Origin: an uncultured virus (IMG/VR IMGVR_UViG_3300007171_000012)
Taxonomy: Duplodnaviria; Heunggongvirae; Uroviricota; Caudoviricetes
DNA length: 62,719 nt
Reading direction: 5' to 3' (one strand)
Virus record (IMG/VR): IMGVR_UViG_3300007171_000012
The notes below the pieces were generated by a model, which was not told the DNA's origin, did not search any database, and worked only from the letters and a program-made list of their open reading frames with translations. Made by a program: the position numbers and the translations under genes. This document shows positions 38,797-62,719 of this stretch, piece by piece (within the stretch, counting starts at the first letter, position 1; the number at the start of each line of letters is the position of its first letter).

Positions 38797-38862
38797 ATGA
38801 GATATTTTATTCCATCAACAAAAACCGTGTCACTCGCAAATCGCGAGTGGAATGCGGCATGA
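38797..38862 (+). CDS. putative 21-aa leader peptide MRYFIPSTKTVSLANREWNAA
   Basis: GTGTAA motif 9 nt upstream; stop codon lies in a sequence complementary to the terminator 5' arm. Confidence 0.55.
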   Translation: MRYFIPSTKTVSLANREWNAA

Positions 38863-38892
38863 CGTTGGGGTAAAAAGATCATTGACCTTCCC

Positions 38893-38922
38893 AACCCAGC
38901 CGTCAAAAGCTGGGTTTTTTTT
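38893..38922 (+). terminator. intrinsic terminator of putative attenuator
   Basis: AACCCAGC-cgtcaaaa-GCTGGGTT followed by a T tract. Confidence 0.85.
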
Positions 38923-38951
38923 GTAAAAAAAAAGTTTCTCAAAAAAAGACG

Positions 38952-38979
38952 TTGACAAATTCAGAACGTCTGGTATAGT
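38952..38979 (+). promoter_or_regulatory. sigma70-type promoter for the RNA island
   Basis: TTGACA-N16-TATAGT. Confidence 0.75.
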
Positions 38980-39132
38980 CAAAACATCAACGGCAGCGAG
39001 CGCCTGAAGCCGCTAAAGTCCGAGAGGGAGATTAGGGTGAAACAAACCTACTAAATACAAAAAATCTAAAAGAGGAGTGATCAGTCCCTCTGTGAACGTT
39101 TTTAAGTAAGCGTAACTGATCATTTTTCAAAT

Positions 39133-39209
39133 GCTCTCATCGTCTAGTCGGGCAGGACACATGACTTTCAATCATGAAACGCAGGGTTCGATTCCCGCTG
39201 GGAGTGCCA
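39133..39209 (+). tRNA. tRNA-Glu(TTC)
   Basis: Cloverleaf; CATGA-cttTCaa-TCATG anticodon arm; CCA. Confidence 0.92.
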
Positions 39210-39355
39210 ATTTAGAATATCTAAAAATTCCTCATTGACAATGAGTTGAGTTTGTGATAGGATATTCTATACAGTTTGGAGCTTGCAAGCCCCAACTAAG
39301 TCTGCAAAGACGCAGAGACAGCTATTTATACCTGTCAGCTTGCTAAATTTTCAAT

Positions 39356-39432
39356 CGTGGGTAGGACAAGATGGTTAGTCAGGAGTCTCATAAGCTCTCT
39401 TCTGGGGGATTCAAGCGCCCCACCCGCAACCA
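39356..39432 (+). tRNA. tRNA-Met(CAT), initiator-like
   Basis: C1xA72 mismatch, ctcataa loop, atypical T loop, CCA. Confidence 0.8.
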
Positions 39433-39435
39433 ATT

Positions 39436-39514
39436 TTTGAGTGCTGTTAGATAAGGGATACTTCTTCAACTATTACTTGAAACCAATAAACCCCTTGTCG
39501 CTTGTTGCCTCAAA
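39436..39514 (+). ncRNA. Y RNA-like #1 (short, no tRNA-like module)
   Basis: TTTGAGTGC...TTGCCTCAAA bulged stem, GATACTTC motif; paralog of 51026-51094. Confidence 0.65.
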
Positions 39515-39525
39515 TGATTTTCAAT

Positions 39526-39602
39526 TGGCGGGCATGCAGTAGTGGTGCTGCGCGAGTCTCATAAGCTCGATTGTCTGGGTTCGACTCCCAGCCCTCCTAC
39601 CA
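39526..39602 (+). tRNA. tRNA-CAT (Met or Ile2)
   Basis: CGAG arm with ctcataa loop, GGTTCGACTCC, CCA; mismatched acceptor stem. Confidence 0.8.
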
Positions 39603-39683
39603 ATTTATTGTTAGTGTAAACATAACCATGAAGATCAGGGTTTCGGTCGCCTGATGTAAAAGAAAAGACCGTGCAATTTCAAA

Positions 39684-39753
39684 CGCTCGTTGGAGCCTGT
39701 GCATGTCGCGATCACGGGTAGCCTACAGGTGAAAAACCAAAGGCGAGCGACCA
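39684..39753 (+). ncRNA. orphan CCA-ended hairpin RNA
   Basis: CGCTCGT/GCGAGCG-ACCA acceptor-like stem with CCTGT/ACAGG inner stem; no cloverleaf. Confidence 0.45.
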
Positions 39754-39756
39754 ATT

Positions 39757-39856
39757 TATAAACAAAAAGATCCAGCTTCCGCAGGGCTGGTCGTGGAAGG
39801 CCCGCCTATCTAACAGGGCTGATAGCTTAAATGTCGTTAAAAGCGTTTTGTTTGTA
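39757..39856 (+). ncRNA. structured RNA resembling the 23S rRNA H88 (E-site) region
   Basis: Closing stem TATAAACAAAA/TTTTGTTTGTA; ordered motifs GATCC...GTGGAAGG...GCTTAA...TAAAAG. Confidence 0.45.
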
Positions 39857-39897
39857 GTTTTATTTGATTTTTTATTAAAACGGTGTAATATACTGTT

Positions 39898-40272
39898 GTG
39901 AATACAAAACAAAAAGGAAATATTGGGCTTGGAGTTGCAATTGCATATTTTACTAATCGTTTATTAACAGTTTCTATTCCAATTAACGATTCCCAACCTT
40001 ATGATTTAGTTGTCGAATTTGAAGATAAAAGTCTTCAAAAAATTCAAGTAAAAACAACATCATTTGTTTCTCAATATGGCATACCCTCGGTTGGATTGCG
40101 ATCTACTGGTGGAAATCAAAGTAGAAACTATGCGAAATACTTTGACAAAAATTCTTGCGATTATATTTTCGTTTATGTTTTAAATACAAATAATAGTTAT
40201 TTAATACCTAGTTGCGAATGCAATAAAAATACTATTAACTTGGGAACTAAATTTGAAAAATTTAAAATTTAA
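39898..40272 (+). CDS. free-standing PD-(D/E)XK homing-type endonuclease
   Basis: KG..G...AIA.F.....VS.P..D...YDLVV......KIQVKT; GTGTAA upstream. Confidence 0.8.
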   Translation: MNTKQKGNIGLGVAIAYFTNRLLTVSIPINDSQPYDLVVEFEDKSLQKIQVKTTSFVSQYGIPSVGLRSTGGNQSRNYAKYFDKNSCDYIFVYVLNTNNSYLIPSCECNKNTINLGTKFEKFKI

Positions 40273-40273
40273 A

Positions 40274-40365
40274 GGGTTCTAACAATAAGAATAGCTGGTG
40301 CTGTTAGGAAGCTGTAACCTTCCTCCCATTAGGGCAAGGAGTTCGATTCTGCCTAGAACCCACCA
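40274..40365 (+). tRNA. tRNA-Tyr(GTA), atypical D and T arms
   Basis: GGGTTCT/AGAACCC-ACCA, GGAAG-ctgtaac-CTTCC, variable arm. Confidence 0.75.
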
Positions 40366-40374
40366 ATTTTTTAT

Positions 40375-40466
40375 GGAAGTGTGGCAGAGCGGTCAATTGC
40401 ACTATCTTGGAAAGATAGAGGTCGCCAAATGGTGGCCCGTAGGTTCAAATCCTACCGCTTCCGCCA
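40375..40466 (+). tRNA. tRNA-Ser(GGA)
   Basis: Type II cloverleaf, G73, CCA. Confidence 0.93.
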
Positions 40467-40477
40467 ATTTTTTTAAT

Positions 40478-40555
40478 GGGGCTGTATCGGAACTGCCTTC
40501 TAAGCAGTGGCACCGTAAGGGAACGATGCAGGTTCGAATCCTGCCAGCCCCGCCA
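40478..40555 (+). tRNA. tRNA-Arg(TCT)-like lacking the D arm, with long variable region
   Basis: GGGGCTG/CAGCCCC-GCCA; only TATCGGA before ACTGC-cttctaa-GCAGT; canonical T arm. Confidence 0.7.
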
Positions 40556-40556
40556 T

Positions 40557-40916
40557 TTATTTTTCAAAAAAATGCCTTGTTCTATGACACATGCAACAAA
40601 GCAAAGCGCATTTATTTACTTCTTCAATACAACTTGATAAAGAAATCTTTCTCATTCTTTCCCAAACCATATCTTTTTGTTTCGGATCTTTGTGGTGGAA
40701 ATCGAAAAGATAATAATTTTGATTTGTCGCAACCAATTTACAATCTTCGCATTCAGATCCCTTATGGTCGATCATGTCGAGTTTGCGCTGAATCCAGCGG
40801 TCGCGGCAGTAGTTATTAAAACATTTTTTACAAAGAGAATTAGTTCGATTTTCTTTTCCTTTGCTGTAGAAGCAATTATCTGATTTTTCTTCTTTACAAG
40901 TGCTACAAATTTTCAT
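40557..40916 (-). CDS. HNH endonuclease (free-standing)
   Basis: CxxC...CxxC, G..C..C, FDFHH.DP..K, KCALLC..CHR.RH. Confidence 0.85.
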   Translation of the reverse strand: MKICSTCKEEKSDNCFYSKGKENRTNSLCKKCFNNYCRDRWIQRKLDMIDHKGSECEDCKLVATNQNYYLFDFHHKDPKQKDMVWERMRKISLSSCIEEVNKCALLCCMCHRTRHFFEK

Positions 40917-40961
40917 ATAAGTATTTACACTTGCTTAGTAGCAAAAAGACTAATTTTTTAT

Positions 40962-41051
40962 GGGTGTGTGGTCGAGTGGTTTATGGCGTCGGTCTTGAAA
41001 ACCGAAGGTGGTGAAAGCTGCCCGTGGGTTCAAATCCTACCGCACCCGCCA
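40962..41051 (+). tRNA. tRNA-Ser(TGA)
   Basis: Type II cloverleaf, CCA. Confidence 0.93.
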
Positions 41052-41060
41052 ATTTTCAAT

Positions 41061-41137
41061 CCCTGTCTGGTGTAAGTGGTCTGCACGATTCGCTGAAGAC
41101 GAGTAGGATGCCTGATCGAAACGGGCGACAGGGGCCA
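41061..41137 (+). tRNA. tRNA-Phe(GAA)
   Basis: ATTCG-ctgaaga-CGAGT; T loop ATCGAAA; CCA. Confidence 0.85.
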
Positions 41138-41245
41138 ATTTTTCAATTGACATTCATCTGAAAAGAGCCTATAGTGAACGCAACAGTAAGTCACATGCTT
41201 CGGCAGACTATGATAGCGGGCAAATCACATGTGATGAATATCAAA

Positions 41246-41320
41246 CGGGGTGAAGCTTTAATGGTGAAGCAGCAGGCTTTTAACTTGCAGAACTGGGATC
41301 GTTACCCAGCGCCCTGACCA
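41246..41320 (+). tRNA. tRNA-Lys(TTT)
   Basis: GCAGG-cttttaa-CTTGC; T loop ATCGTTA; CCA. Confidence 0.88.
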
Positions 41321-41328
41321 ATTTTTAT

Positions 41329-41405
41329 GCAACAAAAGCCACAGCGGACGGGCATCTGACTCTTACTCAGCTATCGTGTGGGTTCAACTCCCACTTGTTG
41401 CACCA
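41329..41405 (+). tRNA. tRNA-Lys(CTT)
   Basis: CTGA-ctcttac-TCAG; CCA. Confidence 0.82.
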
Positions 41406-41413
41406 TTTTCAAA

Positions 41414-41489
41414 TCCCAAGTAGCACAGCGGTAGTTGCGACTGGCTGTTAACCAGTATGTCGGTGGTTCGATCCCACCCTTGGGAGCCA
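41414..41489 (+). tRNA. tRNA-Asn(GTT)
   Basis: Canonical cloverleaf, CCA. Confidence 0.93.
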
Positions 41490-41496
41490 ATTTAAT

Positions 41497-41577
41497 TGTG
41501 GGAAGCGAATTATAGCACGATCAACAATTTCTCTTGCAAGAATGATCGGAGTGGTGAAAGTCCCTGTCTCACAGCCA
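41497..41577 (+). ncRNA. degenerate tRNA-like CCA-ended RNA
   Basis: TGTGGGA/TCTCACA-GCCA; extended CGATCA/TGATCG arm; no canonical D or T loops. Confidence 0.5.
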
Positions 41578-41585
41578 ATTTTTAC

Positions 41586-41659
41586 GGTCCATAAGCATTA
41601 TGGCGATGCACCCTCCTTGTAAGTGGGAGATGTCAGTTCGATTCTGACATGGGCCTCCA
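41586..41659 (+). tRNA. tRNA-Thr(TGT)
   Basis: Cloverleaf, cttgtaa loop, CCA. Confidence 0.9.
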
Positions 41660-41671
41660 TTTTTAAAAGAT

Positions 41672-41809
41672 TTATAGTGGTGACATGAGTTGGTTACTTC
41701 TATTCTAAAGACGAGGCGCAGGTTCGAATCCTGCCGCAACTGCCCATAGGTGAGAGCGTAGCTCAGTGGTTAGAGCGCGAAAAATACCAAATCAGAACAT
41801 TCCCTATAA
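41672..41809 (+). ncRNA. YrlA-type Y RNA #2 (permuted tRNA-like module)
   Basis: TTATAGTGG...TTCCCTATAA stem, GTTACTTC motif; T arm GCAGGTTCGAATCCTGC precedes D arm TAGCTCAGTGGTTAGAGC. Confidence 0.8.
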
Positions 41810-41813
41810 TAAT

Positions 41814-41888
41814 TGGACTATAGCTCAGAGGCAGAGCGCACGCCCGATAAGCGTGAAGTCGAGATTTCGAAATTCTCTAGTCCAACCA
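41814..41888 (+). tRNA. tRNA-Ile(GAT)
   Basis: CACGC-ccgataa-GCGTG (C33); CCA. Confidence 0.88.
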
Positions 41889-41947
41889 ATTTTTTCTTGA
41901 CAGTCACCAAAACGCCTCTTAATATGCGAACCAGTTTGGTGCTTAAT

Positions 41948-42022
41948 AGGCGCGTAGCTGAGTGGTTGTAGCACCTCCTTGATAAGGTGGAGACGCAGGT
42001 TCAATCCCTGCCGCGCCTACCA
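41948..42022 (+). tRNA. tRNA-Ile(GAT)
   Basis: Cloverleaf, ttgataa loop, CCA. Confidence 0.88.
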
Positions 42023-42039
42023 AATTTTCAAAAAACAGG

Positions 42040-42067
42040 TTGACAAAATCAGAAATATCTGCATAAT
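42040..42067 (+). promoter_or_regulatory. sigma70-type promoter of the large ncRNA
   Basis: TTGACA-N16-CATAAT. Confidence 0.7.
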
Positions 42068-42074
42068 CAATCAC

Positions 42075-43030
42075 ATCGCCGCGACGAACTAAGAGTTCTT
42101 CAAAGCGATCTTGGGAAAACAAAGAGTTTCCTTCGTAAAAAGTTCTTTAATATCATAAAAAATTTGCCCGCTTGGGGGCATTACAGGATAATCCAGAAGC
42201 GATTCTGGGAAAGGGATAAGGTTCCTACACCGCCCACTAATTTAGTTCGCTAAGTTAGCCCACCAAGCAAGCCGAGAGATACGACAATATAAGCCATTAA
42301 AACTTATGTTGTTGAAGCCTACGGGTCGAAGAGAGTAAAACAGTGAGGTCAACGATGTAGCTGGTTCTGAAAGGAAAACTCAAATGGGTCTGAAAGCATG
42401 AATCTCAAAGGGTAGTCATAAGTCAGAGTAGAGATACAAAGGCGAATGGCATGCTGAGAGGTTGCCTGAGAGTCAAATCGAGGGTAGTCTTGACTGCGAT
42501 GAAAAAGTAGCGATACTGATTCTAGTTGATGTGTTGTATTCTTGATTTTGAGAGATTTTGAGAGCAGCGTGGTTGCGCACATTGACGTAGGTTTCCATTT
42601 ATTTTGCTGGTTCGAGTCCAGCCTCCCCCGCCATCAGAGCATCCAGCTTATGCTTTGACGGGGGGAGTAGCCAAATGGGTAAAGGCAGTTGCATATTAAA
42701 CAACGTATAAATATTAAAAGCAAAAGACGTAACCCCGAACGCTCGAAAATCGACTAAGACAGAAGCGAAAGCAATTCTGTGCGAACCTTGGCTCGCAAAG
42801 CACAAGGCGTTTGATCAGAGAAGGAAATCTTGCAGGACGGCCATCCTCCGAGGTTCTAGAAATGATCGAGTAGAGTAAACGGTAAATCGCAAATGCCAGC
42901 GATTCATAAAATGGCGTCGATGACTGGATACTATCGAGAGGTAGTGGATAAGTAAGGAAATAGTGGCTTGGAATGCTGCTTAATAATCTTATGAAAGACT
43001 GGTCGCCCTAGCCTGTAATCTCAGGGCTTA
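42075..43030 (+). ncRNA. large (~950 nt) structured ncRNA, probably GOLLD-class
   Basis: No credible ORF, purine-rich with many hairpins, own promoter, inside a phage tRNA array, embedded tRNA-like module; class recalled from memory, not searched. Confidence 0.6.
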
Positions 43031-43095
43031 GATAACAATTTTCGATTGACTTCCCGCGCCTCTGATGCAAGCGTAATTCGGGAAGTGTTTTTAAA

Positions 43096-43170
43096 GCGTG
43101 TATCGTATAATGGTTATTATACAACGTTGCCAACGTTGATATGTCAGTTCGATTCTGACTACACGCACCA
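43096..43170 (+). tRNA. tRNA-Gly(GCC)
   Basis: CAACG-ttgccaa-CGTTG; CCA. Confidence 0.92.
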
Positions 43171-43180
43171 ATTTTCATAT

Positions 43181-43278
43181 CGTGCAGTTGCCTAGCTTGG
43201 TAAGGAGCCTGACTTGGAATCAGGTAGCGGGGACAAGAGTGTTTACCGTCGTGGGTTCGAATCCCACCTGCGCGACCA
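43181..43278 (+). tRNA. tRNA-Pro(TGG) with long variable arm
   Basis: CCTGA-cttggaa-TCAGG, ~26-nt variable region, canonical T arm, CCA. Confidence 0.8.
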
Positions 43279-43286
43279 ATTTTAAA

Positions 43287-43364
43287 TAGGTATTAGCGTA
43301 ACTTGGCTATCGCGCTACATTTGGGATGTAGAGATTATGGGTTCAAATCCCATATACCTAACCA
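43287..43364 (+). tRNA. tRNA-Pro(TGG)
   Basis: CTACA-tttggga-TGTAG; CCA. Confidence 0.9.
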
Positions 43365-43371
43365 ATTTATT

Positions 43372-43451
43372 TGCCTCGGCATCGGATGCTTGGTGATCCA
43401 CGCGCTAATCGCGGAAATGTTAATGCGGTTCGAATCCGCAGCTAGGCACCA
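43372..43451 (+). ncRNA. tRNA-like RNA with non-canonical anticodon arm
   Basis: D arm GGAT/ATCC, CGCG-ctaat-CGCG, perfect T arm TGCGGTTCGAATCCGCA, CCA. Confidence 0.6.
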
Positions 43452-43465
43452 GATTTCAAAAAAAC

Positions 43466-43540
43466 GGCCTGATCATATAACGGTTATTATGCACCCTTGG
43501 TATGGGTGATACTGGAGTTCGACTCTCCATCGGGCCTCCA
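43466..43540 (+). tRNA. tRNA-Thr(GGT)
   Basis: CACCC-ttggtat-GGGTG; CCA. Confidence 0.9.
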
Positions 43541-43553
43541 AACAATTTTCAAT

Positions 43554-43628
43554 GGGCGGTTAGTATAACGGAAGAATACTTGAATACGAATCAAGAGACG
43601 GCGGGTTCAATTCCCCCACTGCCTACCA
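43554..43628 (+). tRNA. tRNA-Arg(ACG)
   Basis: CTTGA-atacgaa-TCAAG; CCA. Confidence 0.85.
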
Positions 43629-43645
43629 GTTTTAATAAATTTTAA

Positions 43646-43720
43646 GGTCCATTAGTGTAAAGGAAGCATCACTAGATTGTCAATCTTGAGGAAGGGGATC
43701 GTTCCCCCTATGGACCGCCA
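43646..43720 (+). tRNA. tRNA-Asp(GTC)
   Basis: ttgtcaa loop, G73, T loop ATCGTTC, CCA. Confidence 0.87.
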
Positions 43721-43810
43721 ATTTCGCCGTAAAGCACAAGAGGTTAGTAACGCGCCTGATTACTGATTATGATGCGAGAGATCGGGCTTAGGGTTCTCAC
43801 GGCAATATAT

Positions 43811-43886
43811 GGGCGCACATGTTCCTTGGGGGCGATTGTCACTTGCAATGACGATGTGGCGAGTTCAATTCTCGTTGTGTCCACCA
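43811..43886 (+). tRNA. tRNA-Ala(TGC)
   Basis: G3:U70, cttgcaa loop, CCA; weak D arm. Confidence 0.82.
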
Positions 43887-44093
43887 TTTTTTTTACTTTA
43901 AAAAGCCGTGTTGGAGTGGCAACCAACTAGCCATAGGTGAATAAAATAGGCGAAGAGTAGCGGGTTGTTCCGCAAAACACTGTGGGTAATCCCCGCGATA
44001 GCAGTAGCGTTATTGGTGAATATATGGGAGTTTTTTGTTTGACAAAACGTAGATCATATGCTCTACTCTTCGGAGTAACCAACTGTCTAATTT

Positions 44094-44168
44094 GGGGCTA
44101 TGGCGCAATGGTAGCGCAGATCCTTTGCAAGGATAAGGTTGAGAGTTCGAATCTCTCTAGCTCCACCA
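44094..44168 (+). tRNA. tRNA-Ala(TGC)
   Basis: GGGGCTA/TAGCTCC-ACCA, canonical cloverleaf. Confidence 0.93.
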
Positions 44169-44177
44169 AATTTTCAA

Positions 44178-44302: not shown

Positions 44303-44311
44303 ATTTCAAAC

Positions 44312-44385: not shown

Positions 44386-44393
44386 ATTTTTAT

Positions 44394-56502: not shown

Positions 56503-58434
56503 ATGAAAACCGCAGCTATTGCTTCTCCTCTCATTGCTTCTGAAAATCTCGAAAGCTCGATCATGGGAATGGATTCCGCTGGAATCAGTCAGGCGACTTA
56601 TTTCCTGCGAGATAAAATTTACTCCAATAAAATTCTTGCAGTAGTGCGCGAATATCTGTGCAATGCTATTGATGAGCATAAAAAGCATGGAATCGTAAAA
56701 CCTGTTGAAGTTGGTTTTCGTTCAGAAGGAAATGATCTTGTATTTTTTGTGCGAGATTTTGCTCATGGACTCAGTGGACATGATGTTCGTAATGTTTTTG
56801 GAATGTATTTCCGAAGCACCAAATCAAAGAGTAATGAGCTAATCGGTGGATTCGGTATTGGCTCGAAAGCGGGTCATTGTTACACTGATACTTTTTTTGT
56901 TACTTCGTTCTTTGAAAATCAAAAAACCACTTACACTTGTATGCTGGGGGGCGATTCTGGTGTTCCAGTGGGTCATATTTACGAAATTGGTCAGTGCGAT
57001 ACAACAGAACAAGGATTGGAAATCTCCATGCCAATCAATCGTGCTGATGCTGCTGAGTTTGAAAAAGAGATTGAATTTTTTGTTGCTTTTTCGCCAGCAG
57101 AAATTGAGTTTTACAAATTAGATAAAACTATTTTTAAAAAGAAAGATCCTGCTTTTTCTAAAAGCATTGATGGATTTGGCGTCCGATTGATTGAATGGAT
57201 TGGTCAACTTCCTTCGTCGTCTCATATTGATCGCTATACCATGCATGATCACGCGATTTTGCAGATGGGTGGCGTTTGTTATGGATCTATTGATCTCGAC
57301 GCATCTATTCGCGTCAAACCAAATCATATTCTTGTTGTTGATATTCCTGTTGGAATGATGTCTATTCCTATCAGCCGAGAATCTTTTGAAGATACTCCAA
57401 GCAATAAGAGAATTCACGATCAAATTCGCAAGATTCTTACCGATTTGATAGAAGAAGATTTGGCTCAATTTAAAGCCAAAGATGTATCTCAGGCAGTAAT
57501 AGAGTATCTTGCTGATCCATTTTCGAAATTGAATTATATTGGAGAAGTATTCTCTGCTCCAAAAGCTCGCATTCATAAGGATTATTGGCCATTTTTGAGC
57601 AATATTCGCCAATCGAATATTAATGGCACTTTGCAAAATAAGAAAAATAAAACTGTCGTAGTGGTCATCCCCGACAATTATGCGGAAAAATATTGGCAAC
57701 GAAAGATGCTTGATTTTAGCAAAAGCGTTAATCATAATTATTATTATATTAGTGCCGCATTTGTCAGGACTTATCCTAATACTGATTTGTCCGATCATTT
57801 TGAATTCGTCGCTGTCAAAAAACTCCCTTTCCCAAAAGTCGCGAAAGATAGCAAGAGATATGCAATTTATTCTAATCATGGTAATTGCGGAACTTTCTCG
57901 CCGTTGGAATTGCATAATTATTGGCGCAAGGCAACAAATATGCCAGAAGCGTCAACTACAAAAGAAGCAAGCAAGCAAATCAAAGATTATCTTGATAACG
58001 CTTCTAGCGCTCGCGATTTGCAGCGTTATGTAATCGCTAATCGTAATAATACGTCTAAAAACACCTCGACAATTACTTTTTATACATCTTCTGAAAAATT
58101 CTTGCAGGAAATGTGCAAAGAGCTTGGTTGGCTGGAATATGGAAGCGATGAATATAGAACTTTGCGCGATAGCTTGATCAAAAAAGACAAAGAAAAAGAA
58201 GAAATTAACAATGCAATTGCTAATTCCCGCCGCCGATGGTTGGATATGAATAGCCGCACTCGTCGTTTGATTGAAAAAAATCCTAAAAATGCTTTGCGCA
58301 TCGTTAAGTTTTGGCAGAATGTTCGCCAAGAATCTTCATTCAGAGCAAAAATAATCAAAACTCTTGAGCATGCTGGTTATGTATGTCCTGTATATACGCG
58401 ATCAGAATTTCGCAGAATCTTGAAGATGAAATAA
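56503..58434 (+). CDS. rIIA: rIIA-like protein
   Basis: GHKL ATPase N terminus (IYSNK..AVVREY.CNA.D, VRDF..GLS, STK..SN..IGGFGIGSK); upstream of rIIB. Confidence 0.85.
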   Translation: MKTAAIASPLIASENLESSIMGMDSAGISQATYFLRDKIYSNKILAVVREYLCNAIDEHKKHGIVKPVEVGFRSEGNDLVFFVRDFAHGLSGHDVRNVFGMYFRSTKSKSNELIGGFGIGSKAGHCYTDTFFVTSFFENQKTTYTCMLGGDSGVPVGHIYEIGQCDTTEQGLEISMPINRADAAEFEKEIEFFVAFSPAEIEFYKLDKTIFKKKDPAFSKSIDGFGVRLIEWIGQLPSSSHIDRYTMHDHAILQMGGVCYGSIDLDASIRVKPNHILVVDIPVGMMSIPISRESFEDTPSNKRIHDQIRKILTDLIEEDLAQFKAKDVSQAVIEYLADPFSKLNYIGEVFSAPKARIHKDYWPFLSNIRQSNINGTLQNKKNKTVVVVIPDNYAEKYWQRKMLDFSKSVNHNYYYISAAFVRTYPNTDLSDHFEFVAVKKLPFPKVAKDSKRYAIYSNHGNCGTFSPLELHNYWRKATNMPEASTTKEASKQIKDYLDNASSARDLQRYVIANRNNTSKNTSTITFYTSSEKFLQEMCKELGWLEYGSDEYRTLRDSLIKKDKEKEEINNAIANSRRRWLDMNSRTRRLIEKNPKNALRIVKFWQNVRQESSFRAKIIKTLEHAGYVCPVYTRSEFRRILKMK

Positions 58435-58472
58435 TGATTGACAAAAACAACAATAACTGTAAAATATAAACA

Positions 58473-59459
58473 ATGAAATACATTATCAACAACAACAGTA
58501 TCGTATTTTTTCACGGGCGCAAGCCTATCAAGGTGGAAAAGTCTTCTCCTCAATACATTCGTATTATTCGTGCATTCGACCTTGATCCAGATGAACAAGA
58601 GTCTGCAATTCATGATATTTTGAATGAGAAGGTTGGAGTTTTCGAGCGTGATGGTTTCGTCGTAACTGAAGAAGAAGTTTCTTATCAAGGCGAAACTCTC
58701 CCAAGTGTTCTTGCGGCTAAGATTCGCGCTATTGTCAATGAAGGTCTTCCAATCTCTCTATTCGGAAAATTTTGGGAAAATCTTCAAAAGAATCCTTCTG
58801 CTTCGTCTGTTCGCGAACTTTATGAATTCCTCGCTTACAAGGAACTGCCAATCACTGAAGATGGCTGTTTCCTCGCCTACAAGGGACTCTCAAGCGATTA
58901 TTGGTCTATCTCTGGCAACACCAAGACCAAAGTTACTAAAGGCACTGTAGATGCCTCTGGGCGCATCTTTAACGGTATTGGTGAGGAAATTGAAGTTCGT
59001 CGTTTTGATGTTGACGACAATCGCAATGTTCACTGCTCATTCGGTCTTCATGTCGGTTCACTTGATTACGCGAAGGACTTTGCTCAGGGACGATTGGTTG
59101 TTGTCAAGGTAAATCCGAAAGATGTCGTTAGTGTTCCTACTGACTACTCTTGCCAAAAGTGCCGAGTGTCTGCTTACAAGGTCGTGGATGATTTCGAAAA
59201 GGAAATTGTTGCATCAGTAACTGATGAAAATGCAGTTGAAATTGAATCTGAAGATCGCAAGGAAAATTCCAAGTTCCTTGATCGTATTGACGCTTACCTC
59301 ACAAATAAGGCCAATCAAGGACTTGGTGCTGTTTCTGTGCGCTCTATTCAGAATTCGTTCTCGCCAGAATATCCATCGCGTGTCCGTGTTCTTTCCGCGC
59401 TCTCTGATTTGGGATATTGCTGGGAAGAAAGTGATGAAGGTTATGTAGTTATTCTATAA
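58473..59459 (+). CDS. rIIB: rIIB-like protein
   Basis: F.ENL..NPS......LY.FL....LPITEDG.FLAYK, CS.GLHVG...YA, VKVNP.DVVSVP.DY. Confidence 0.9.
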   Translation: MKYIINNNSIVFFHGRKPIKVEKSSPQYIRIIRAFDLDPDEQESAIHDILNEKVGVFERDGFVVTEEEVSYQGETLPSVLAAKIRAIVNEGLPISLFGKFWENLQKNPSASSVRELYEFLAYKELPITEDGCFLAYKGLSSDYWSISGNTKTKVTKGTVDASGRIFNGIGEEIEVRRFDVDDNRNVHCSFGLHVGSLDYAKDFAQGRLVVVKVNPKDVVSVPTDYSCQKCRVSAYKVVDDFEKEIVASVTDENAVEIESEDRKENSKFLDRIDAYLTNKANQGLGAVSVRSIQNSFSPEYPSRVRVLSALSDLGYCWEESDEGYVVIL

Positions 59460-59778: not shown

Positions 59779-59980
59779 TAGGCAAAAATATATCATTGAT
59801 TGTGACGATGACGGTCACTGGTATTATTTCCCTCTTGAAATGAGGGACGAATTCCAGAAATGGATTGACATTCAATACGGAGACGATTATGATAATCCCA
59901 TGTATGGAAGTTATCCTGATTGGTTGAAGTGTATCGACGGTCCACATTCAATTACATTTGAAAATCCAGAATTTCGATAA
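59771..59980 (+). CDS. hypothetical protein
   Basis: Coupled ORF, DDDGHWY. Confidence 0.65.
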   Translation: MTNRQKYIIDCDDDGHWYYFPLEMRDEFQKWIDIQYGDDYDNPMYGSYPDWLKCIDGPHSITFENPEFR

Positions 59981-59982
59981 TC

Positions 59983-60180
59983 ATGACATACACAATCACA
60001 ATAGATCTAAGCAAAATTGATGAGCAAGGACCAACATGCTTGCATAAAACATGTTCAGCCTGTCATGGAACTGGACGTAAAGCAGACGGCAGCTATTGTA
60101 TTCATGCATTGAGTTGTCCGTGTCCAAGCTGTAGTCCATTTACTTTAAATCTGAATCGAAAAGTTATTTGTCGTGTCTGA
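59983..60180 (+). CDS. small Cys-rich (Zn-finger-like) protein
   Basis: CLH..C..C.GTG.K.DG..CIH..SCPCP.C. Confidence 0.65.
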   Translation: MTYTITIDLSKIDEQGPTCLHKTCSACHGTGRKADGSYCIHALSCPCPSCSPFTLNLNRKVICRV

Positions 60181-60550
60181 AATTTACCTTACATACGCCG
60201 AAAAGCAAAAATTGCTTGAACTCGGAGCAGATGAATCTTCAATCCATGAAGATATTAGTGAGTTTTCTAGGATGTGTGATCATAAAGATTGCGCTAAACT
60301 CAATCAAGCTGAGTTAACGAAAGAACAGTGTGCTAAACTGATTCCTGAAGGTAACTATTGCTATAATCGTGTCAATGGCGTATTCAAAGTCTGCCCATTT
60401 TGGGACAAGATTGTTGACTTTCCGACACAAGATAACGGATATTGCCATTACCTGAAAAGAGGAGATTGGCAGCGTGGAGGATCGGGCTTACTTTGGGATC
60501 AGTGTAAAGAATGTGGCGTAAATGAATATCAAGAAGACTATGAATCATGA
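60173..60550 (+). CDS. Cys-rich hypothetical protein
   Basis: IP.G.YCY...CPFW...GYC.YL...LLWDQCKECG. Confidence 0.65.
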   Translation: MSEIYLTYAEKQKLLELGADESSIHEDISEFSRMCDHKDCAKLNQAELTKEQCAKLIPEGNYCYNRVNGVFKVCPFWDKIVDFPTQDNGYCHYLKRGDWQRGGSGLLWDQCKECGVNEYQEDYES

Positions 60551-60912
60551 GTAGAGAAATTAAATTTAGAGTTTGGAATGGACATAAATTTCTCGATAAT
60601 AATTTCGCTATTACAAATAAAGGAAGTATTATTGACATAGAAGATTGTTTATGGAACTTTGAAGATGAGAATTGCGTTATTCAACAATACACAGGTCTAA
60701 AAGACAAGAATGAAGTGGAGATTTACGAAGGGGATATTGTGAAAGTTGGCTACGGTGAACATGAAGGGGCATTAGGAAAGGCTAATTTTCAATACGGCTC
60801 TTTCATGTTAACCAGCAAATACGGAGGAAATTTCATGGATACTTATAGATCATGTCTATACGGAGAGGTAATCGGCAACATCTTTGAAAATCCAGAACTA
60901 TTAGAATCATGA
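60547..60912 (+). CDS. YopX family protein
   Basis: REIKFRVW...QYTGLKDKN..EIYEGDIV...EVIGNIFENPELLE. Confidence 0.9.
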   Translation: MSREIKFRVWNGHKFLDNNFAITNKGSIIDIEDCLWNFEDENCVIQQYTGLKDKNEVEIYEGDIVKVGYGEHEGALGKANFQYGSFMLTSKYGGNFMDTYRSCLYGEVIGNIFENPELLES

Positions 60913-61124
60913 AAGCTCAAAAGTATTACGATATTGAATTTTACATGGCACCTCCTATTGACAAATGGAGTAAACTGGCAGGATTCTCCTACATGAGAAA
61001 ATCTTTTGCTGAAGGAGCATGGTCCATGTTAAAAGCTTATTATAATCAAAGATACGAATACCGATTATTGTGTGATGGCCAAGTGATTGATGAAATCGGC
61101 AAACAAACAATCAAAGTAAATTAA
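60909..61124 (+). CDS. hypothetical protein
   Basis: Coupled ORF. Confidence 0.6.
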   Translation: MKAQKYYDIEFYMAPPIDKWSKLAGFSYMRKSFAEGAWSMLKAYYNQRYEYRLLCDGQVIDEIGKQTIKVN

Positions 61125-61203
61125 CAAGTCGGTAGAATTCAAGTTTCTGAATATTTTACCAAAAATTGTTGACAATTGAGTGAATCTTGAGTATTGTCGC
61201 TTT

Positions 61204-62412
61204 ATGCAAACGATTGAAAACATCTCCATCTTTGGCGAACCAATTCAGAACGCCGTTGACCAAATGAAGAATGTTCTTGCTAAGGGTGCGGCTCGCGCTG
61301 CTCTAATGGCAGATCATCACTTGGGCTATAGCGTGCCTGTCGGTGGCGTTGTCGCTTATCGAAACGGTATTTCTCCTTCTGGAGTTGGATTCGATATTGG
61401 ATGTGGCAATAAGGCCGTGCGATTGAATGTTCATTACGGACAAATTGCATCGGATATGGAGCGCATCATGGACGAAGTAGCTAGAAATATTTCGTTCGGT
61501 ATTGGTCGCGTTTCAAAGTCTCGACATATCGCTGGTCAAGAAGATGTTTCAGATCATGCTCTTTTTTCCGATCCTCTTTGGAATGATCTTGATTCTATCA
61601 AGCCTCTAAAGGATATGGCTCGCAATCAGCTTGGGACTGTTGGTTCTGGAAATCATTATGTTGATATTTTTTATGACGAATTGGGTCGCGTGTGGGTGGG
61701 TGTCCACTTTGGATCGCGAGGTCTTGGTCATAAGATTGCATCGCATTATATCAAGGCTGGTGGCGGAACTGATGGAATGTTTGTAGATCCTGTTGTGCTT
61801 GACACCAATTCTGATTTGGGCCGCGAATACATCGCCGCAATGAATCTTGCTGGTCAGTATGCTTACGCTGGTCGCGATTGGGTATGCCGCGAAGTTGCTC
61901 GCATCATTGGCGGGGATATTGTGGACGAAGTTCATAATCATCATAACTTTGCTTGGTATGAAAATCATGGTGGCGAAGATTTGTGGGTTGTTCGCAAGGG
62001 AGCGACTCCAGCTTTTCCTAATCAGCGTGGTTTTGTCGGCGGCACTATGGGAGAAAACTCAGTTATTCTTGAAGGTGCTGAGTCTGAATTTTCTTCTGCT
62101 TCTCTATATTCGACCGTTCACGGTGCAGGTCGCGTTATGTCGCGAAATGAAGCGGCTGGCAAGGTCAAGTGGAAAGGTGGAGTAAAGACTCGCATTTCTG
62201 AAGGAAAGGTTTCTCAGGCAATGATGGATGAATGGGTTAATCGCGCAGGAGTTGTCTTGCGAGGAGCAGGTGTTGACGAATCTCCACATTGCTACAAGCG
62301 TCTGGGGGATGTCTTGCTTGCTCAACATGATACTATTCGCATTCTCCATGTTCTCACTCCTATTGGAGTAGCAATGGCTGGCTCAGAAACCTTTGATCCT
62401 TACAAGGATTAA
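61204..62412 (+). CDS. rtcB: RtcB RNA ligase
   Basis: M.D.H.GY..PVG, VGFDIGCG, GT.GSGNHY, HFGSRG.G, HN, RKGATPA, HGAGR.MSR, DESP..YK. Confidence 0.95.
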   Translation: MQTIENISIFGEPIQNAVDQMKNVLAKGAARAALMADHHLGYSVPVGGVVAYRNGISPSGVGFDIGCGNKAVRLNVHYGQIASDMERIMDEVARNISFGIGRVSKSRHIAGQEDVSDHALFSDPLWNDLDSIKPLKDMARNQLGTVGSGNHYVDIFYDELGRVWVGVHFGSRGLGHKIASHYIKAGGGTDGMFVDPVVLDTNSDLGREYIAAMNLAGQYAYAGRDWVCREVARIIGGDIVDEVHNHHNFAWYENHGGEDLWVVRKGATPAFPNQRGFVGGTMGENSVILEGAESEFSSASLYSTVHGAGRVMSRNEAAGKVKWKGGVKTRISEGKVSQAMMDEWVNRAGVVLRGAGVDESPHCYKRLGDVLLAQHDTIRILHVLTPIGVAMAGSETFDPYKD

Positions 62413-62427
62413 AAATCAATACAATTT

Positions 62428-62470
62428 GCGGCTCTCCTGAAATTTCTTGGGAGAGTCGTAAAATTTTTTA
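62428..62470 (+). terminator. probable terminator
   Basis: GCGGCTCTCC...GGAGAGTCGT hairpin after rtcB. Confidence 0.55.
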
Positions 62471-62485
62471 ATTAAAATTAAAACA

Positions 62486-62719
62486 ATGAAACAACCTTAC
62501 AATTTATTTTTGGATGATATTCGCATGCCAAAAGACGCTTGGATTTATCCAAGACGCAACGAACAGAAACAAATTATTTCTGGTCAATCGCTTGAACAAA
62601 TTTCGGGTATTCCAAACGACAATTGGGAAATTGTGCGTTCCTATGATCAATTTGTGGCGATGATTGAAAAGAATGGAATTCCAGATGTGGTCAGCTTCGA
62701 TCATGACTTATCAGAAGAA
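62486..62719 (+). CDS. cyclic-phosphate processing receiver-domain protein (3'-truncated)
   Basis: Read manually: LFLDDIR.P...W.IVRSY.QF...I...G.P..VSFDHDL. Confidence 0.75.
   Translation, partial: MKQPYNLFLDDIRMPKDAWIYPRRNEQKQIISGQSLEQISGIPNDNWEIVRSYDQFVAMIEKNGIPDVVSFDHDLSEE

What the first reader, a model, noticed from the sequence alone, without database searches (positions are those of the whole stretch)
38797..62719. Integrated phage translation-rescue and RNA-repair system
Seen in one region: ~35 tRNAs for all 20 amino acids, tmRNA, Ro60, five Y-RNA-like genes, RtcB, a calcineurin-like phosphoesterase, a cyclic-phosphate receiver-domain gene next to rtcB, a GOLLD-like RNA, rRNA- and tRNA-mimics and rIIA/rIIB. 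Known: Rsr, YrlA and RtcB are co-encoded in bacterial RNA-repair operons; RtcB joins 2',3'-cyclic phosphate or 3'-P ends to 5'-OH ends such as those left by anticodon nucleases. Inference: a layered replace/repair/rescue/decoy counter-defence against host translation shut-off.
Basis: partly seen in the sequence, partly recalled or inferred. Interest (0 to 1): 0.8.

Follow-up and report, generated by a model that had tools for sequence, protein, structure and literature searches.

The report
Phage tRNA island with RNA-repair genes
An uncultured phage packs a nearly complete set of tRNA genes next to a ribosome-rescue RNA, a Ro60 ring protein with five partner RNAs and an RNA-joining enzyme; all the parts are known kinds, and together they probably keep protein synthesis running during infection.

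Summary
I found 30 canonical tRNAs for 19 amino acids (no convincing Tyr), plus two non-canonical tRNA-like genes. I also found a tmRNA and a GOLLD RNA (138 bits, just under Rfam's cut-off of 150). Ro60 and exactly five Y-RNA-like genes are present; the latter were detected with a covariance model built only from other phages. RtcB, a truncated cREC gene, a metallophosphoesterase and rIIA/rIIB are confirmed. No rRNA mimic was found.

The "one integrated system" reading is only partly supported. In the closest relative (L140), RtcB, the phosphoesterase cassette, tmRNA, Y RNAs and Ro60 lie within about 5.6 kb inside the tRNA array. Across wider phage diversity the modules mostly occur alone:
- RtcB in 0 of 17 viral Ro60 loci.
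- Ro60 in 4 of 80 RtcB loci.
- tmRNA in 0 of 97 viral loci.
- No GOLLD in the one relative that covers its position.

Strain variants differ mainly by presence or absence of homing-endonuclease genes.

The idea that phage tRNAs, RNA ligases, cREC and TROVE proteins jointly counter attacks on translation is already in print (Iyer et al. 2021). This is a rich new member of a known kind. One lineage-specific extra stands out: an alanine-type tRNA-like RNA right after the tmRNA.

The parts
39133..47452 (+). Main tRNA array: 26 canonical tRNA genes, interspersed with homing-endonuclease genes and non-coding RNAs
   Evidence: ARAGORN; Rfam
53045..53380 (+). Second tRNA cluster (Gly-UCC, Gln, His, Ser-GCU) directly after Ro60; conserved in L102, L103 and L105
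39438..39515 (+). Y RNA 1, a stem-only form. Its positional counterpart in L002/L105 still carries the tRNA-like domain
   Evidence: R1 38.9 bits, E 3e-8, filters off
41674..41810 (+). Y RNA 2, YrlA-type (closing stem, then T-arm, acceptor-like hairpin, D-arm), 9.7 kb upstream of Ro60
   Evidence: R1 81.4 bits; Rfam YrlA 24.4 bits, below cut-off
51028..51095 (+). Y RNA 3, a stem-only form, 12 bases after a promoter-like site at 50989-51016
   Evidence: R1 33.4 bits; conserved in L002
51239..51373 (+). Y RNA 4, YrlA-type
   Evidence: R1 66.3 bits; conserved in L002
51383..51499 (+). Y RNA 5, YrlA-type without the acceptor-like hairpin; it ends just before the Ro60 start codon
   Evidence: R1 67.0 bits
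51505..53001 (+). Ro60 (TROVE plus vWA with a DxSxS metal site). Homology to other Ro60 proteins starts at 51691
50389..50782 (+). tmRNA with a tag ending ...ASLAAA; present in L102 and L140
50788..50897 (+). Alanine-type tRNA-like RNA: 7-bp acceptor stem with G3:U70, A73, CCA, two T-arm-like hairpins. Found only in this lineage
42524..43027 (+). GOLLD-like RNA (conserved 3' domain). The transcript probably starts after the promoter-like site at 42040-42067
42582..42712 (+). Permuted tRNA-like module in the GOLLD linker: T-arm, acceptor 3' strand plus G-CCA, loop, acceptor 5' strand, D-arm
   Evidence: R1 24.5 bits, partial match; Rfam YrlA 21.7 bits and tmRNA_permuted 19.2 bits, both below cut-off
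40478..40552 (+). Non-canonical tRNA-like gene. Its 7-base loop reads UCU, making it a candidate tRNA-Arg for AGA, the commonest Arg codon here
   Evidence: Rfam tRNA 43.4 bits; conserved in L002
48033..48136 (+). Long tRNA-like gene (acceptor stem, T-arm, CCA, extra hairpin). It differs from the L140 copy at 1 base, while the flanks are about 73% identical
48149..49595 (+). Three-gene cassette: orf82, orf216 (HExxH motif) and a metallophosphoesterase. It lies next to RtcB in L022 and near it in L140
61180..62412 (+). RtcB RNA ligase with conserved catalytic motifs; promoter-like site at 61169-61197
62425..62462 (+). Terminator-like hairpin (16 pairs plus a T run) between RtcB and cREC
62486..62719 (+). 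cREC (cyclic-phosphate-processing receiver) gene; only the N-terminal 78 residues lie in the window
56503..59459 (+). rIIA and rIIB. These are neighbours, and no evidence links them to the RNA genes
49604..50233 (+). HNH homing-endonuclease gene, absent from strain variants in 4 of 4 runs. Other such genes: 38172-38738, 39898-40272 (PD-(D/E)XK), 44508-44927, 45124-45585 (-) and 47450-48085 (-)

Best explanation
The region is the accessory 'RNA island' of an uncultured, low-GC, long-tailed phage. It is a set of separate modules of known kinds that all act on the host's translation apparatus. In this lineage they are genetically linked around the tRNA array, but they are not one obligate machine.

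Modules:
1. A near-complete tRNA set (27 anticodons, 19 amino acids) that can read about 84-94% of the phage's own codons. It supplies or replaces tRNAs.
2. A tmRNA that frees stalled ribosomes using the host's SmpB, followed by an alanine-type tRNA-like RNA.
3. Ro60 with five Y RNAs. This ribonucleoprotein most likely binds damaged or misfolded RNAs and recruits host PNPase.
4. RtcB, which seals 2',3'-cyclic-phosphate/5'-OH breaks. Its likely helpers are cREC and a metallophosphoesterase cassette.
5. A GOLLD RNA of unknown role.

Homing endonucleases move in and out of the array and reshuffle the modules.

Shown here: presence, family membership, conserved catalytic and structural motifs, covariation, synteny and strain-level indels.
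Inferred: expression early from host-type promoters, and the joint purpose of keeping translation going when tRNAs, rRNA or ribosomes are attacked or run down.
For: Presence and family membership.

Y RNAs:
- The consensus structure has 27 pairs, 24 of them with compensatory changes.
- The model was built without the window, yet finds five genes in it.
- It also finds matches beside Ro60 in 17 of 17 viral Ro60 loci, 7 of which were not used for the model, and in 4 of 4 Ro60-bearing RtcB loci.

Linkage within the lineage:
- L140 has RtcB, the cassette, tmRNA, the tRNA-like RNA, Y RNAs and Ro60 in about 5.6 kb.
- L102 has tmRNA, Y RNAs, Ro60 and tRNAs.
- In L022, RtcB follows 18 tRNAs and precedes cassette homologues at 38%, 50% and 57% identity.

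RNA-repair neighbours of RtcB in 80 viral loci:
- A second, ATP-dependent RNA ligase in 14 flanking ORFs, a metallophosphoesterase in 3, TROVE in 3, and a PNKP phosphatase in 1.

Other support:
- Codon cover is 84.3% with strict wobble and 93.8% with U34 four-box reading, over 13,660 codons.
- Promoter-like sites number 55 against 36.9 +/- 5.8 expected in 38700-54000.
- Strain variants lose endonuclease genes but keep the RNA genes.

Published support:
- Phage phiLo Ro60 binds two upstream Y-like RNAs and host PNPase (PMC12135203, passages).
- Phage tRNAs evade tRNA-cleaving defences (PMC11464382 and PMC11555353, search listing and abstract starts only).
Against: - No expression data: no RNA run was on record for this stretch.
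- The host is unknown, so it cannot be asked whether it carries tRNA or rRNA nucleases.
- Outside the lineage the modules are mostly unlinked: RtcB in 0 of 17 Ro60 loci, Ro60 in 4 of 80 RtcB loci, and tmRNA in 0 of 97 viral loci.
- In the window itself RtcB lies 8.2 kb from Ro60 behind about 15 unrelated genes (lysis, rII, small ORFs) and has its own promoter-like site.
- A terminator-like hairpin separates RtcB from cREC.
- The tRNA set lacks Tyr, which accounts for 4.6% of codons, so it is not self-sufficient.
- The loci counted include duplicates of the same phage, which I did not remove.
- The counts are not corrected for relatedness.
Confidence: 0.6

Rival explanations
1. One reading: one integrated, layered counter-defence system. 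The parts (replace = tRNAs, repair = RtcB/cREC/phosphoesterase/Ro60-Y, rescue = tmRNA, decoy = tRNA mimics and GOLLD) were selected to work together against host nucleases such as PrrC, VapC or PARIS.
For: - The arrangement in L140 is compact.
- RtcB or Ro60 is embedded in tRNA arrays in L022, L035, L055 and L097.
- Neighbourhoods persist despite reshuffling.
- The published concept covers phage RNA repair plus tRNAs (PMC7824862) and rescue-then-repair by PrfH and RtcB (PMC9304027, abstract start only).
Against: - Each module occurs alone in most phages examined.
- tmRNA and GOLLD are missing from L002/L105, which otherwise shares the array.
- Several promoter-like and terminator-like sites argue for separate transcription units.
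- rIIA/rIIB and the lysis genes in between are unrelated.
- The decoy role is pure conjecture.
- No functional test exists.
Confidence: 0.2
2. Accretion at a hot spot, with no shared purpose. tRNA arrays attract homing endonucleases and RNA genes that use the same early promoters and processing enzymes. On this view the tRNAs mainly serve codon supply as host tRNAs decay, and the other genes are passengers.
For: - At least six homing-endonuclease-type genes lie in or beside the array.
- Near-identical strains show precise presence or absence of them (49607-50195 missing in 4 of 4 runs, 44474-44951 in 3, 46278-46649 in 2).
- RtcB occupies a different site in L140 than in the window.
- The near-complete anticodon set fits general supply better than rescue of a few targeted tRNAs.
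Against: - The passengers are not random. RtcB neighbours are enriched for RNA-end-processing enzymes.
- Ro60 always comes with Y RNAs.
- The same RNA-care genes stay within the array across rearrangements in the lineage.
Confidence: 0.2
3. For the Ro60/Y RNA module alone: it is offensive, not reparative. The ribonucleoprotein captures host PNPase to redirect RNA decay, for instance against host RNAs or CRISPR RNA maturation, and is not a partner of RtcB.
For: - The closest solved homologue is phage phiLo Ro60 (9KOP/9L5Y, E 5e-26). It forms a complex with Y-like RNAs and host PNPase, and its authors propose that it hijacks PNPase (PMC12135203, passages).
- RtcB is absent from 17 of 17 viral Ro60 loci.
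Against: - Ro60 lies immediately beside RtcB in L035, L073 and L097.
- The two are co-encoded in the Salmonella rsr-yrlBA-rtcBA operon (PMC7790460, abstract start only).
Confidence: 0.25

Closest known systems
RNA-repair and tRNA repertoire of jumbo phages (Iyer, Anantharaman, Krishnan, Burroughs, Aravind 2021, PMC7824862; passages read)
   Same: Phage tRNAs as substitutes for cleaved host tRNAs, supplemented by RtcB or ATP-grasp ligases, cREC linked to RNA ligases, phosphoesterases, and a TROVE protein with a tRNA-like partner.
   Different: Here the parts are concentrated in one island of a phage with lambda-like tail genes and a DnaE-type polymerase. They are joined by a tmRNA, a GOLLD RNA and five Y RNAs. 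No ATP-dependent RNA ligase or polynucleotide kinase was found in the window.
Salmonella rsr-yrlBA-rtcBA RNA repair operon (PMC7790460, abstract start; Chen et al. 2014, PMC4201824, passages)
   Same: Ro60, YrlA-type tRNA-mimicking Y RNAs and RtcB are encoded together.
   Different: In the window Ro60 and RtcB are 8.2 kb apart. There is no RtcA or RtcR. There are five Y RNAs instead of two, and two of them lie about 10-12 kb from Ro60 inside the tRNA array.
Thermus phage phiLo Ro60 with Yrl1/Yrl2 (PMC12135203; PDB 9KOP, 9L5Y)
   Same: The closest solved homologue (E 5e-26). Y-like RNA genes lie directly upstream of the phage Ro60 gene.
   Different: In the passages read, phiLo is described with two Y-like RNAs and without a tRNA array, tmRNA or RtcB ('rtcb' occurs 0 times in that paper).
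Subcluster C1 mycobacteriophages (e.g. Momo: 34 tRNAs and one tmRNA, PMC4472892, abstract in listing; Ro60 and YrlA in mycobacteriophages, PMC4201824)
   Same: Large tRNA sets together with a tmRNA in a phage. Ro60 and Y RNAs are known from mycobacteriophages.
   Different: An unrelated, high-GC myovirus lineage. I did not examine these genomes, so the layout of their genes was not compared.
GOLLD RNA (Rfam RF02032; cryo-EM nanocage, preprint 10.1101/2024.12.08.627333, passages)
   Same: A full-length match to the conserved 3' domain. It lies in a phage tRNA island and has a tRNA-like element in the linker, as reported for some GOLLD RNAs.
   Different: The score is 138.2, below the gathering score of 150. 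The linker element is permuted (T-arm before D-arm with a closed acceptor stem) rather than an ordinary tRNA.
Single phage tRNAs or T4 Pnk/Rnl1 that defeat tRNA-cleaving defences (PARIS: PMC11464382; retron and others: PMC11555353; listings and abstract starts only)
   Same: Replacement or repair of cleaved tRNAs as a phage counter-measure.
   Different: Those cases are tested experimentally and involve one or a few tRNAs or an ATP-dependent ligase. Here nothing is tested and the ligase is RtcB.

Membership tests
tmRNA (RF00023) | Match to the family model above the curated score, with a tag reading frame | tested here: met
   113.2 bits against 47. ARAGORN finds a tag peptide ending ASLAAA plus stop. 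Homologues with a similar tag are in L102 and L140.
GOLLD (RF02032) | Match to the family model at or above the gathering score | tested here: not met
   138.2 bits against 150, but full length (1-416) with E 7e-37. Homology is very likely, although the formal threshold is missed.
GOLLD (RF02032) | Location in a phage or prophage, often near tRNA islands | tested here: met
   It lies between tRNA-Ile (ends 42022) and tRNA-Gly (43096). The context is as described in the preprint passages.
YrlA-type Y RNA (RF02553; Chen et al. 2014) | Match to the Rfam model at the gathering score | tested here: not met
   The best window match is 24.4 bits against 69. No YrlA match reached the cut-off in 9 phage Ro60 loci either, so the Rfam model does not reach this phage branch.
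YrlA-type Y RNA (RF02553; Chen et al. 2014) | A stem closing the 5' and 3' ends, plus a tRNA-like domain in the order T-arm, acceptor-like hairpin, D-arm | tested here: met
   The consensus of 15 relatives has 27 pairs, 24 with compensatory changes. Three window genes match the whole model at 66-81 bits; two match only the closing stem at 33-39 bits.
YrlA-type Y RNA (RF02553; Chen et al. 2014) | Encoded within about 4 kb of Ro60 on the same strand | tested here: inconclusive
   Met for 3 of 5 genes (51028, 51239, 51383). Not met for 39438 and 41674, which lie about 12.0 and 9.7 kb upstream on the same strand.
YrlA-type Y RNA (RF02553; Chen et al. 2014) | Binding to Ro60 | not testable with these tools
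   Needs a gel-shift or co-purification experiment.
Ro60 / TROVE | TROVE domain above the curated score, and a vWA domain with a metal-ion site | tested here: met
   TROVE 66.2 bits against 23. The DxSxS motif aligns with that of phiLo Ro60. The vWA_Ro60 profile alone is weak (17.9 bits against 27.7).
RtcB | RtcB domain above the curated score, with conserved metal-binding and nucleophile histidine motifs | tested here: met
   218 bits against 27. The motifs around the Asp/Cys, three His and the HGAGR histidine align with P. horikoshii RtcB 4DWR/1UC2. The roles of these residues are recalled, not taken from a call.
cREC (PF20274) | cREC receiver domain above the curated score | tested here: inconclusive
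   44.7 bits against 27, but covering only profile positions 1-43 of 88 because the window ends at residue 78.
rsr-yrlBA-rtcBA type operon | Ro60, Y RNAs and RtcB in one operon with RtcA under RtcR | tested here: not met
   Ro60 and RtcB are 8.2 kb apart and separated by many genes. No RtcA or RtcR domain was found among the ORFs scanned.
rIIA / rIIB | Match to the phage rIIA and rIIB protein families | tested here: met
   PHROG 612 E 6e-57 and PHROG 609 E 1e-50. Homologues of both are also present in L103.

The most novel reading that the evidence does not exclude
In this phage lineage the following travel together as one mobile cassette inside the tRNA array (all within about 5.6 kb in L140): RtcB, an HExxH-protein/metallophosphoesterase pair, a tmRNA, several Y RNAs, Ro60, and a so-far undescribed alanine-type tRNA-like RNA. 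That RNA has G3:U70, A73, a T-arm and an extra internal T-arm-like hairpin, and sits directly after the tmRNA. On this reading the cassette is a dedicated unit for maintaining the translation apparatus. The tRNA-like RNA would be a new RNA class that is charged with alanine or competes for alanyl-tRNA synthetase or SmpB. The GOLLD RNA would carry a permuted tRNA-like handle that links it to the same machinery.
Probability: 0.2. Interest if true: 0.7.

Novelty: new member of a known kind. Interest (0 to 1): 0.45.

Why it matters
tRNA- and rRNA-cleaving defences are now recognised as common bacterial immunity, and single phage tRNAs are proven escape tools. This island is one of the fullest natural collections of translation-maintenance genes in a single phage region. 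Its close relatives show which parts stay together: tRNAs, Y RNAs and Ro60, often with tmRNA, RtcB and the phosphoesterase cassette. GOLLD, cREC and the endonucleases come and go.

That makes it a good template for module-by-module tests of phage RNA repair. It also offers a natural setting in which to ask what Ro60/Y RNPs, GOLLD and phage tmRNAs do during infection. It does not reveal a new principle.

Tried and rejected
- Whole genome of the window: none is held, so the rest of cREC and of the phage could not be read.
- Near-identical DNA in the phage collection: none. The polymerase is at most 32% identical to that of any deposited phage.
- rRNA mimic: no rRNA family at E <= 1. The claim is rejected as unsupported.
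- tRNA-Tyr: not found at default or relaxed ARAGORN settings, nor by Rfam. Only a degenerate remnant exists.
- Identity of the two odd tRNA-like genes: ARAGORN's relaxed folds were inconsistent. I kept only 'candidate Arg-UCU' for 40478-40552, read from its loop sequence.
- RNA runs: no RNA holder listed, so expression could not be examined.
- Exact 18-base search for the alanine-type tRNA-like RNA in viral contigs found only the contig of L002. A covariance model of it found only its four source sequences among 92 sources; everything else scored 32 bits or less, on tRNAs.
- Possible tmRNA remnant in L002/L105 (a T-arm plus CCA end in the place of the tmRNA): inconclusive.
- Folding energies of 15 spacers: z about -3 for 39210-39355 and 46278-46652; the rest were unremarkable. 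51500-51690 turned out to be the coding N-terminus of Ro60.
- Protein atlas leads: orf396 is LamG-like and orf216 is SprT/ImmA-like. These are leads only. I made no structure prediction and no complex prediction.
- Earlier findings by place and by sequence: nothing.

Full report
WHAT THE WINDOW IS

The 62.7-kb window is phage DNA of about 35% G+C. Upstream of the finding lie these genes:
- a UvsX-like recombinase, a DnaB-type helicase, a primase and a DnaE-type polymerase;
- a ClpA/B-like AAA+ protein;
- lambda-like tail genes (J, I, K, L types);
- glycosyl- and sulfotransferases, a Mom-like protein and a nucleoside deoxyribosyltransferase.

No deposited phage is close. There was no megablast match, and the polymerase is at most 32% identical to any deposited sequence. 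No whole genome is held for the window.

CHECK OF THE OBSERVATION

ARAGORN finds 30 tRNA genes and one tmRNA, all on the + strand. The tRNAs carry 27 different anticodons for 19 amino acids; tyrosine is missing.

Rfam at its curated thresholds adds two tRNA-like genes that ARAGORN does not call, at 40478-40552 and 48033-48133. Only at relaxed thresholds do the calls rise to 38, including overlapping and opposite-strand ones. A Tyr(GUA)-like anticodon arm with a CCA-ending tail sits at 40285-40368, just after a PD-(D/E)XK endonuclease gene.

The protein claims hold:
- TROVE/Ro60.
- RtcB at 218 bits.
- The N-terminal 78 residues of a cREC protein, cut by the window end.
- A 170-residue metallophosphoesterase.
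- rIIA and rIIB.

RtcB keeps the motifs that align with the metal-binding and nucleophile residues of P. horikoshii RtcB (residue roles recalled). Ro60 keeps the DxSxS site of its vWA domain. Its closest solved relative is the Ro60 of Thermus phage phiLo.

The GOLLD match is full length with E 7e-37, but at 138.2 bits it misses Rfam's gathering score of 150. No rRNA family matched at E <= 1, so the 'rRNA mimic' is unsupported.

THE FIVE Y RNAs

Rfam's YrlA model gives only a 24-bit hint at 41717-41776. It reached its cut-off in none of nine phage Ro60 loci.

I scanned for T-arm-like hairpins outside tRNAs. This showed a recurring layout upstream of Ro60 genes in 17 viral contigs fetched with the Ro60 protein:
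- a 5' motif of the GNCGAA type followed by GNTACTTC;
- then a T-arm, a hairpin and a D-arm;
- then a 3' strand that pairs back to the 5' end.

This is the order that Chen et al. 2014 describe for YrlA (PMC4201824, passages).

An alignment of 15 such sequences, none from the window, gives a consensus of 27 pairs, 24 of them with compensatory changes. The covariance model built from it (R1) finds exactly five full-model matches in the window:
- 41674-41810 at 81.4 bits.
- 51383-51499 at 67.0 bits.
- 51239-51373 at 66.3 bits.
- 39438-39515 at 38.9 bits.
- 51028-51095 at 33.4 bits.

Three have the tRNA-like domain and two are stem-only forms.

The same model finds matches beside Ro60 in several further sets:
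- 17 of 17 viral Ro60 loci, 7 of which were not used to build it.
- Microcystis phage Mvi-JY20.
- 4 of 4 Ro60-bearing RtcB loci.
- Many metagenome contigs.

A few matches at 29-40 bits lie in loci without a detected Ro60 (L050, L052, L057, L090, L086, L072, L058, L059). Some of these may be tandem tRNAs.

Two of the window's five genes lie about 10-12 kb from Ro60 inside the tRNA array, beyond the 4-kb rule used in the 2014 survey.

The ORF listed as 51451-53001 overlaps Y RNA 5. In L102 and L140 the reading frame starts at the ATG that corresponds to 51505. Homology to other Ro60 proteins starts at 51691.

tRNA MIMICS

Three further elements are real and conserved.

(a) 50788-50897, five bases after the tmRNA:
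- It has a 7-bp acceptor stem with a G3:U70 pair, A73 and CCA, a terminal T-arm, and an internal T-arm-like hairpin followed by two more hairpins.
- In an alignment with L105, L102 and L140, 98.1% of pair cells are standard pairs, against at most 56% when partners are slid.
- Three pairs show compensatory changes, and G3:U70 is kept in 4 of 4 sequences. This rests on four sequences, so it is a small sample.
- G3:U70 with A73 is the established identity set for alanyl-tRNA synthetase and is shared by tmRNA. That is established knowledge, not a call.
- A model of the element finds nothing else among 92 sources.

(b) 48033-48136 differs from the L140 copy at one base, while the surrounding stretch is about 73% identical.

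(c) 40478-40552 is conserved in L002/L105. It has a regular 7-base loop reading UCU. AGA is the commonest arginine codon in the phage (193 of 475 Arg codons), and no canonical tRNA in the island reads it.

In addition, the GOLLD linker (42582-42712) holds a permuted tRNA-like module. It consists of a T-arm, a 7-base acceptor 3' strand followed by G-CCA, a loop, the matching 5' strand and a D-arm. tRNAs in the GOLLD linker are mentioned in the cryo-EM preprint. A permuted one is not mentioned in the passages I read.

DO THE PARTS BELONG TOGETHER?

Wide view:
- Of 17 viral Ro60 loci with up to 10 kb of flank, none has RtcB, one (L002) has five or more tRNAs, and none has a tmRNA.
- Of 80 viral RtcB loci, 31 have at least one tRNA, 6 have five or more, 4 have Ro60 and none has a tmRNA.
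- Of the ORFs flanking RtcB (67 downstream, 74 upstream), 14 are ATP-dependent RNA ligases, 3 are metallophosphoesterases, 3 are TROVE proteins, 1 is a PNKP-type phosphatase and 0 are cREC.
- Duplicated contigs were not removed from these counts.

So RtcB does keep RNA-end-processing company, and Ro60 always keeps Y RNAs. The full combination, however, is rare.

Where RtcB meets large arrays it sits right in them: L022 has 18 tRNAs, L035 has 26, L055 has 24 and L097 has 32. In L035 and L097 it is directly next to Ro60 and Y RNAs.

Close view, from the metagenome scan with Ro60:
- L140: Ro60 N-terminus 92-93% identical. Its order is two tRNA-Leu, RtcB (66% identical), three tRNA-Leu, the 48033-type tRNA-like gene, orf82, orf216, the phosphoesterase (84%), tmRNA, the alanine-type tRNA-like RNA, two Y RNAs, then Ro60. 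All of this lies within about 5.6 kb.
- L102: phosphoesterase end, tmRNA, Y RNAs, Ro60 and the four downstream tRNAs.
- L103: Ro60, the four tRNAs, then the same genes as the window down to rIIA, rIIB and beyond.
- L105/L002: 22 tRNAs in the same order, six Y-type matches and Ro60, but no tmRNA and no GOLLD.
- L022: RtcB is followed within 1.4-2.8 kb by homologues of orf82, orf216 and the phosphoesterase.

In this lineage the RNA-care genes therefore stay in or beside the array while their order changes. tmRNA, GOLLD and cREC are the variable members.

WHY THE ORDER CHANGES

The array holds HNH and PD-(D/E)XK endonuclease genes. Contigs of four DNA runs carry near-identical variants that show the following differences:
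- They lack exactly the HNH gene at 49607-50195 (4 of 4 runs).
- They lack the HNH gene at 44474-44951 (3 runs).
- They lack the 372-base spacer at 46278-46649 (2 runs). This is the site where L140 has RtcB.
- They lack 47455-48132 (2 runs).
- They replace the PD-(D/E)XK region (1 run).

The RNA genes are kept. A 2026 paper reports that a homing endonuclease in the T-even tRNA region helps amplify anti-defence loci (PMC13096335, abstract start in listing only).

HOW IT PROBABLY WORKS

Promoter-like sites of the host sigma-70 type are enriched in 38700-54000 (55 against 36.9 +/- 5.8 expected) but not in 54000-62719 (27 against 25.6 +/- 5.7). Strong ones precede these features:
- the first tRNA;
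- the GOLLD region;
- Y RNA 3;
- the tRNA cluster after Ro60;
- RtcB.

A 16-pair terminator-like hairpin separates RtcB from cREC. I infer several early transcription units rather than one operon.

The phage tRNAs can read 84.3% of 13,660 phage codons by strict wobble. The figure is 93.8% if U34 tRNAs read whole four-codon boxes and one CAU tRNA is an Ile2 tRNA. The gaps are Tyr at 4.6% and AGA/AGG at 1.6%.

The most likely reading is a consortium of modules that keep translation going, with these roles:
- tRNA supply or replacement.
- Ribosome rescue by tmRNA with host SmpB; no SmpB domain was seen among the ORFs scanned.
- RNA surveillance by Ro60/Y RNP, probably through host PNPase as shown for phiLo (PMC12135203).
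- Break sealing by RtcB with end-processing helpers.

Whether the threat is host defence nucleases or general decay of the host machinery cannot be told from sequence.

COMPARISON WITH WHAT IS KNOWN

- Iyer et al. 2021 already describe, for jumbo phages, tRNAs that substitute for cleaved host tRNAs. They also describe RtcB and ATP-grasp ligases, cREC linked to RNA ligases, phosphoesterases, and a TROVE protein with a tRNA-like partner, under 'RNA repair/ribosome rescue'.
- Chen et al. 2014 found YrlA genes in 22 phages.
- C1 mycobacteriophages have about 34 tRNAs plus a tmRNA.
- GOLLD is known from phage tRNA islands.

The finding is therefore a rich new member of a known kind. What I did not find in the papers searched is the alanine-type tRNA-like RNA after the tmRNA, the permuted tRNA-like module in a GOLLD linker, or the compact L140-type cassette. 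Supplementary tables of Chen et al. and Iyer et al. were not opened and may list similar loci.

EARLIER NOTES OF THIS SCAN

One search returned earlier notes on alanine-type and tRNA-shaped Y RNAs beside Ro60, and on tRNA/Y RNA/Ro60 operons in other genomes. These are unchecked leads. They fit the theme but were not tested here.

VERDICT

- Interest is moderate.

Noticed in passing
window 50788-50897: A tRNA-like RNA five bases after the tmRNA, with the alanine identity marks (G3:U70, A73, CCA) and an extra internal T-arm-like hairpin. It is conserved with compensatory changes in L105, L102 and L140, and found nowhere else among 92 sources.
   Followed up: yes
window 42582-42712: The linker of the GOLLD RNA holds a permuted tRNA-like module: a T-arm, then an acceptor 3' strand with G-CCA, a loop, the acceptor 5' strand and a D-arm. 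It resembles the tRNA-like half of YrlA and permuted tmRNA genes.
   Followed up: partly
window 48033-48136; L140 5181-5290: A 104-base tRNA-like gene with an extra hairpin. It is almost identical (1 difference) to the L140 copy, although the flanking genes are only 46-84% identical in protein. Its anticodon could not be assigned.
   Followed up: partly
window 46278-46652: A spacer between two tRNA-Leu genes that folds better than shuffles (z -3.1, + strand). It is precisely absent from strain variants in 2 runs, and it marks the site where L140 carries RtcB.
   Followed up: partly
window 10197-12464: A phage-encoded ClpA/ClpB-like double AAA+ protein (Clp_N, AAA, AAA_2 and ClpB_D2-small domains). 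This is interesting beside a phage tmRNA, whose tags normally send proteins to Clp proteases.
   Followed up: no
window 48425-49075: orf216 has an HExxH motif and atlas leads to SprT/ImmA-like metallopeptidases. It always travels with orf82 and the metallophosphoesterase (window, L140, L022).
   Followed up: partly
window 38172-38738, 39898-40272, 44508-44927, 45124-45585, 47450-48085, 49604-50233: Six homing-endonuclease-type genes in or beside the tRNA array. Several are precisely present or absent among near-identical strains in public runs.
   Followed up: yes
window 34699-38175: A run of modification-type genes just before the island: a sulfotransferase, a core-2/I-branching-type glycosyltransferase, a Mom-like protein and a nucleoside 2-deoxyribosyltransferase. 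This may be a DNA hypermodification pathway.
   Followed up: no
L002 8597-8630 (= L105 8591-8624): Where the window has its tmRNA, this relative has only a T-arm plus an acceptor 3' strand and CCA, behind an opposite-strand ORF. It may be a tmRNA or tRNA remnant.
   Followed up: partly
window 51505-51690: The Ro60 of this lineage has a variable N-terminal extension of about 48-62 residues that other Ro60 proteins lack. The window's copy has a 12-residue insert carrying a cysteine cluster.
   Followed up: partly
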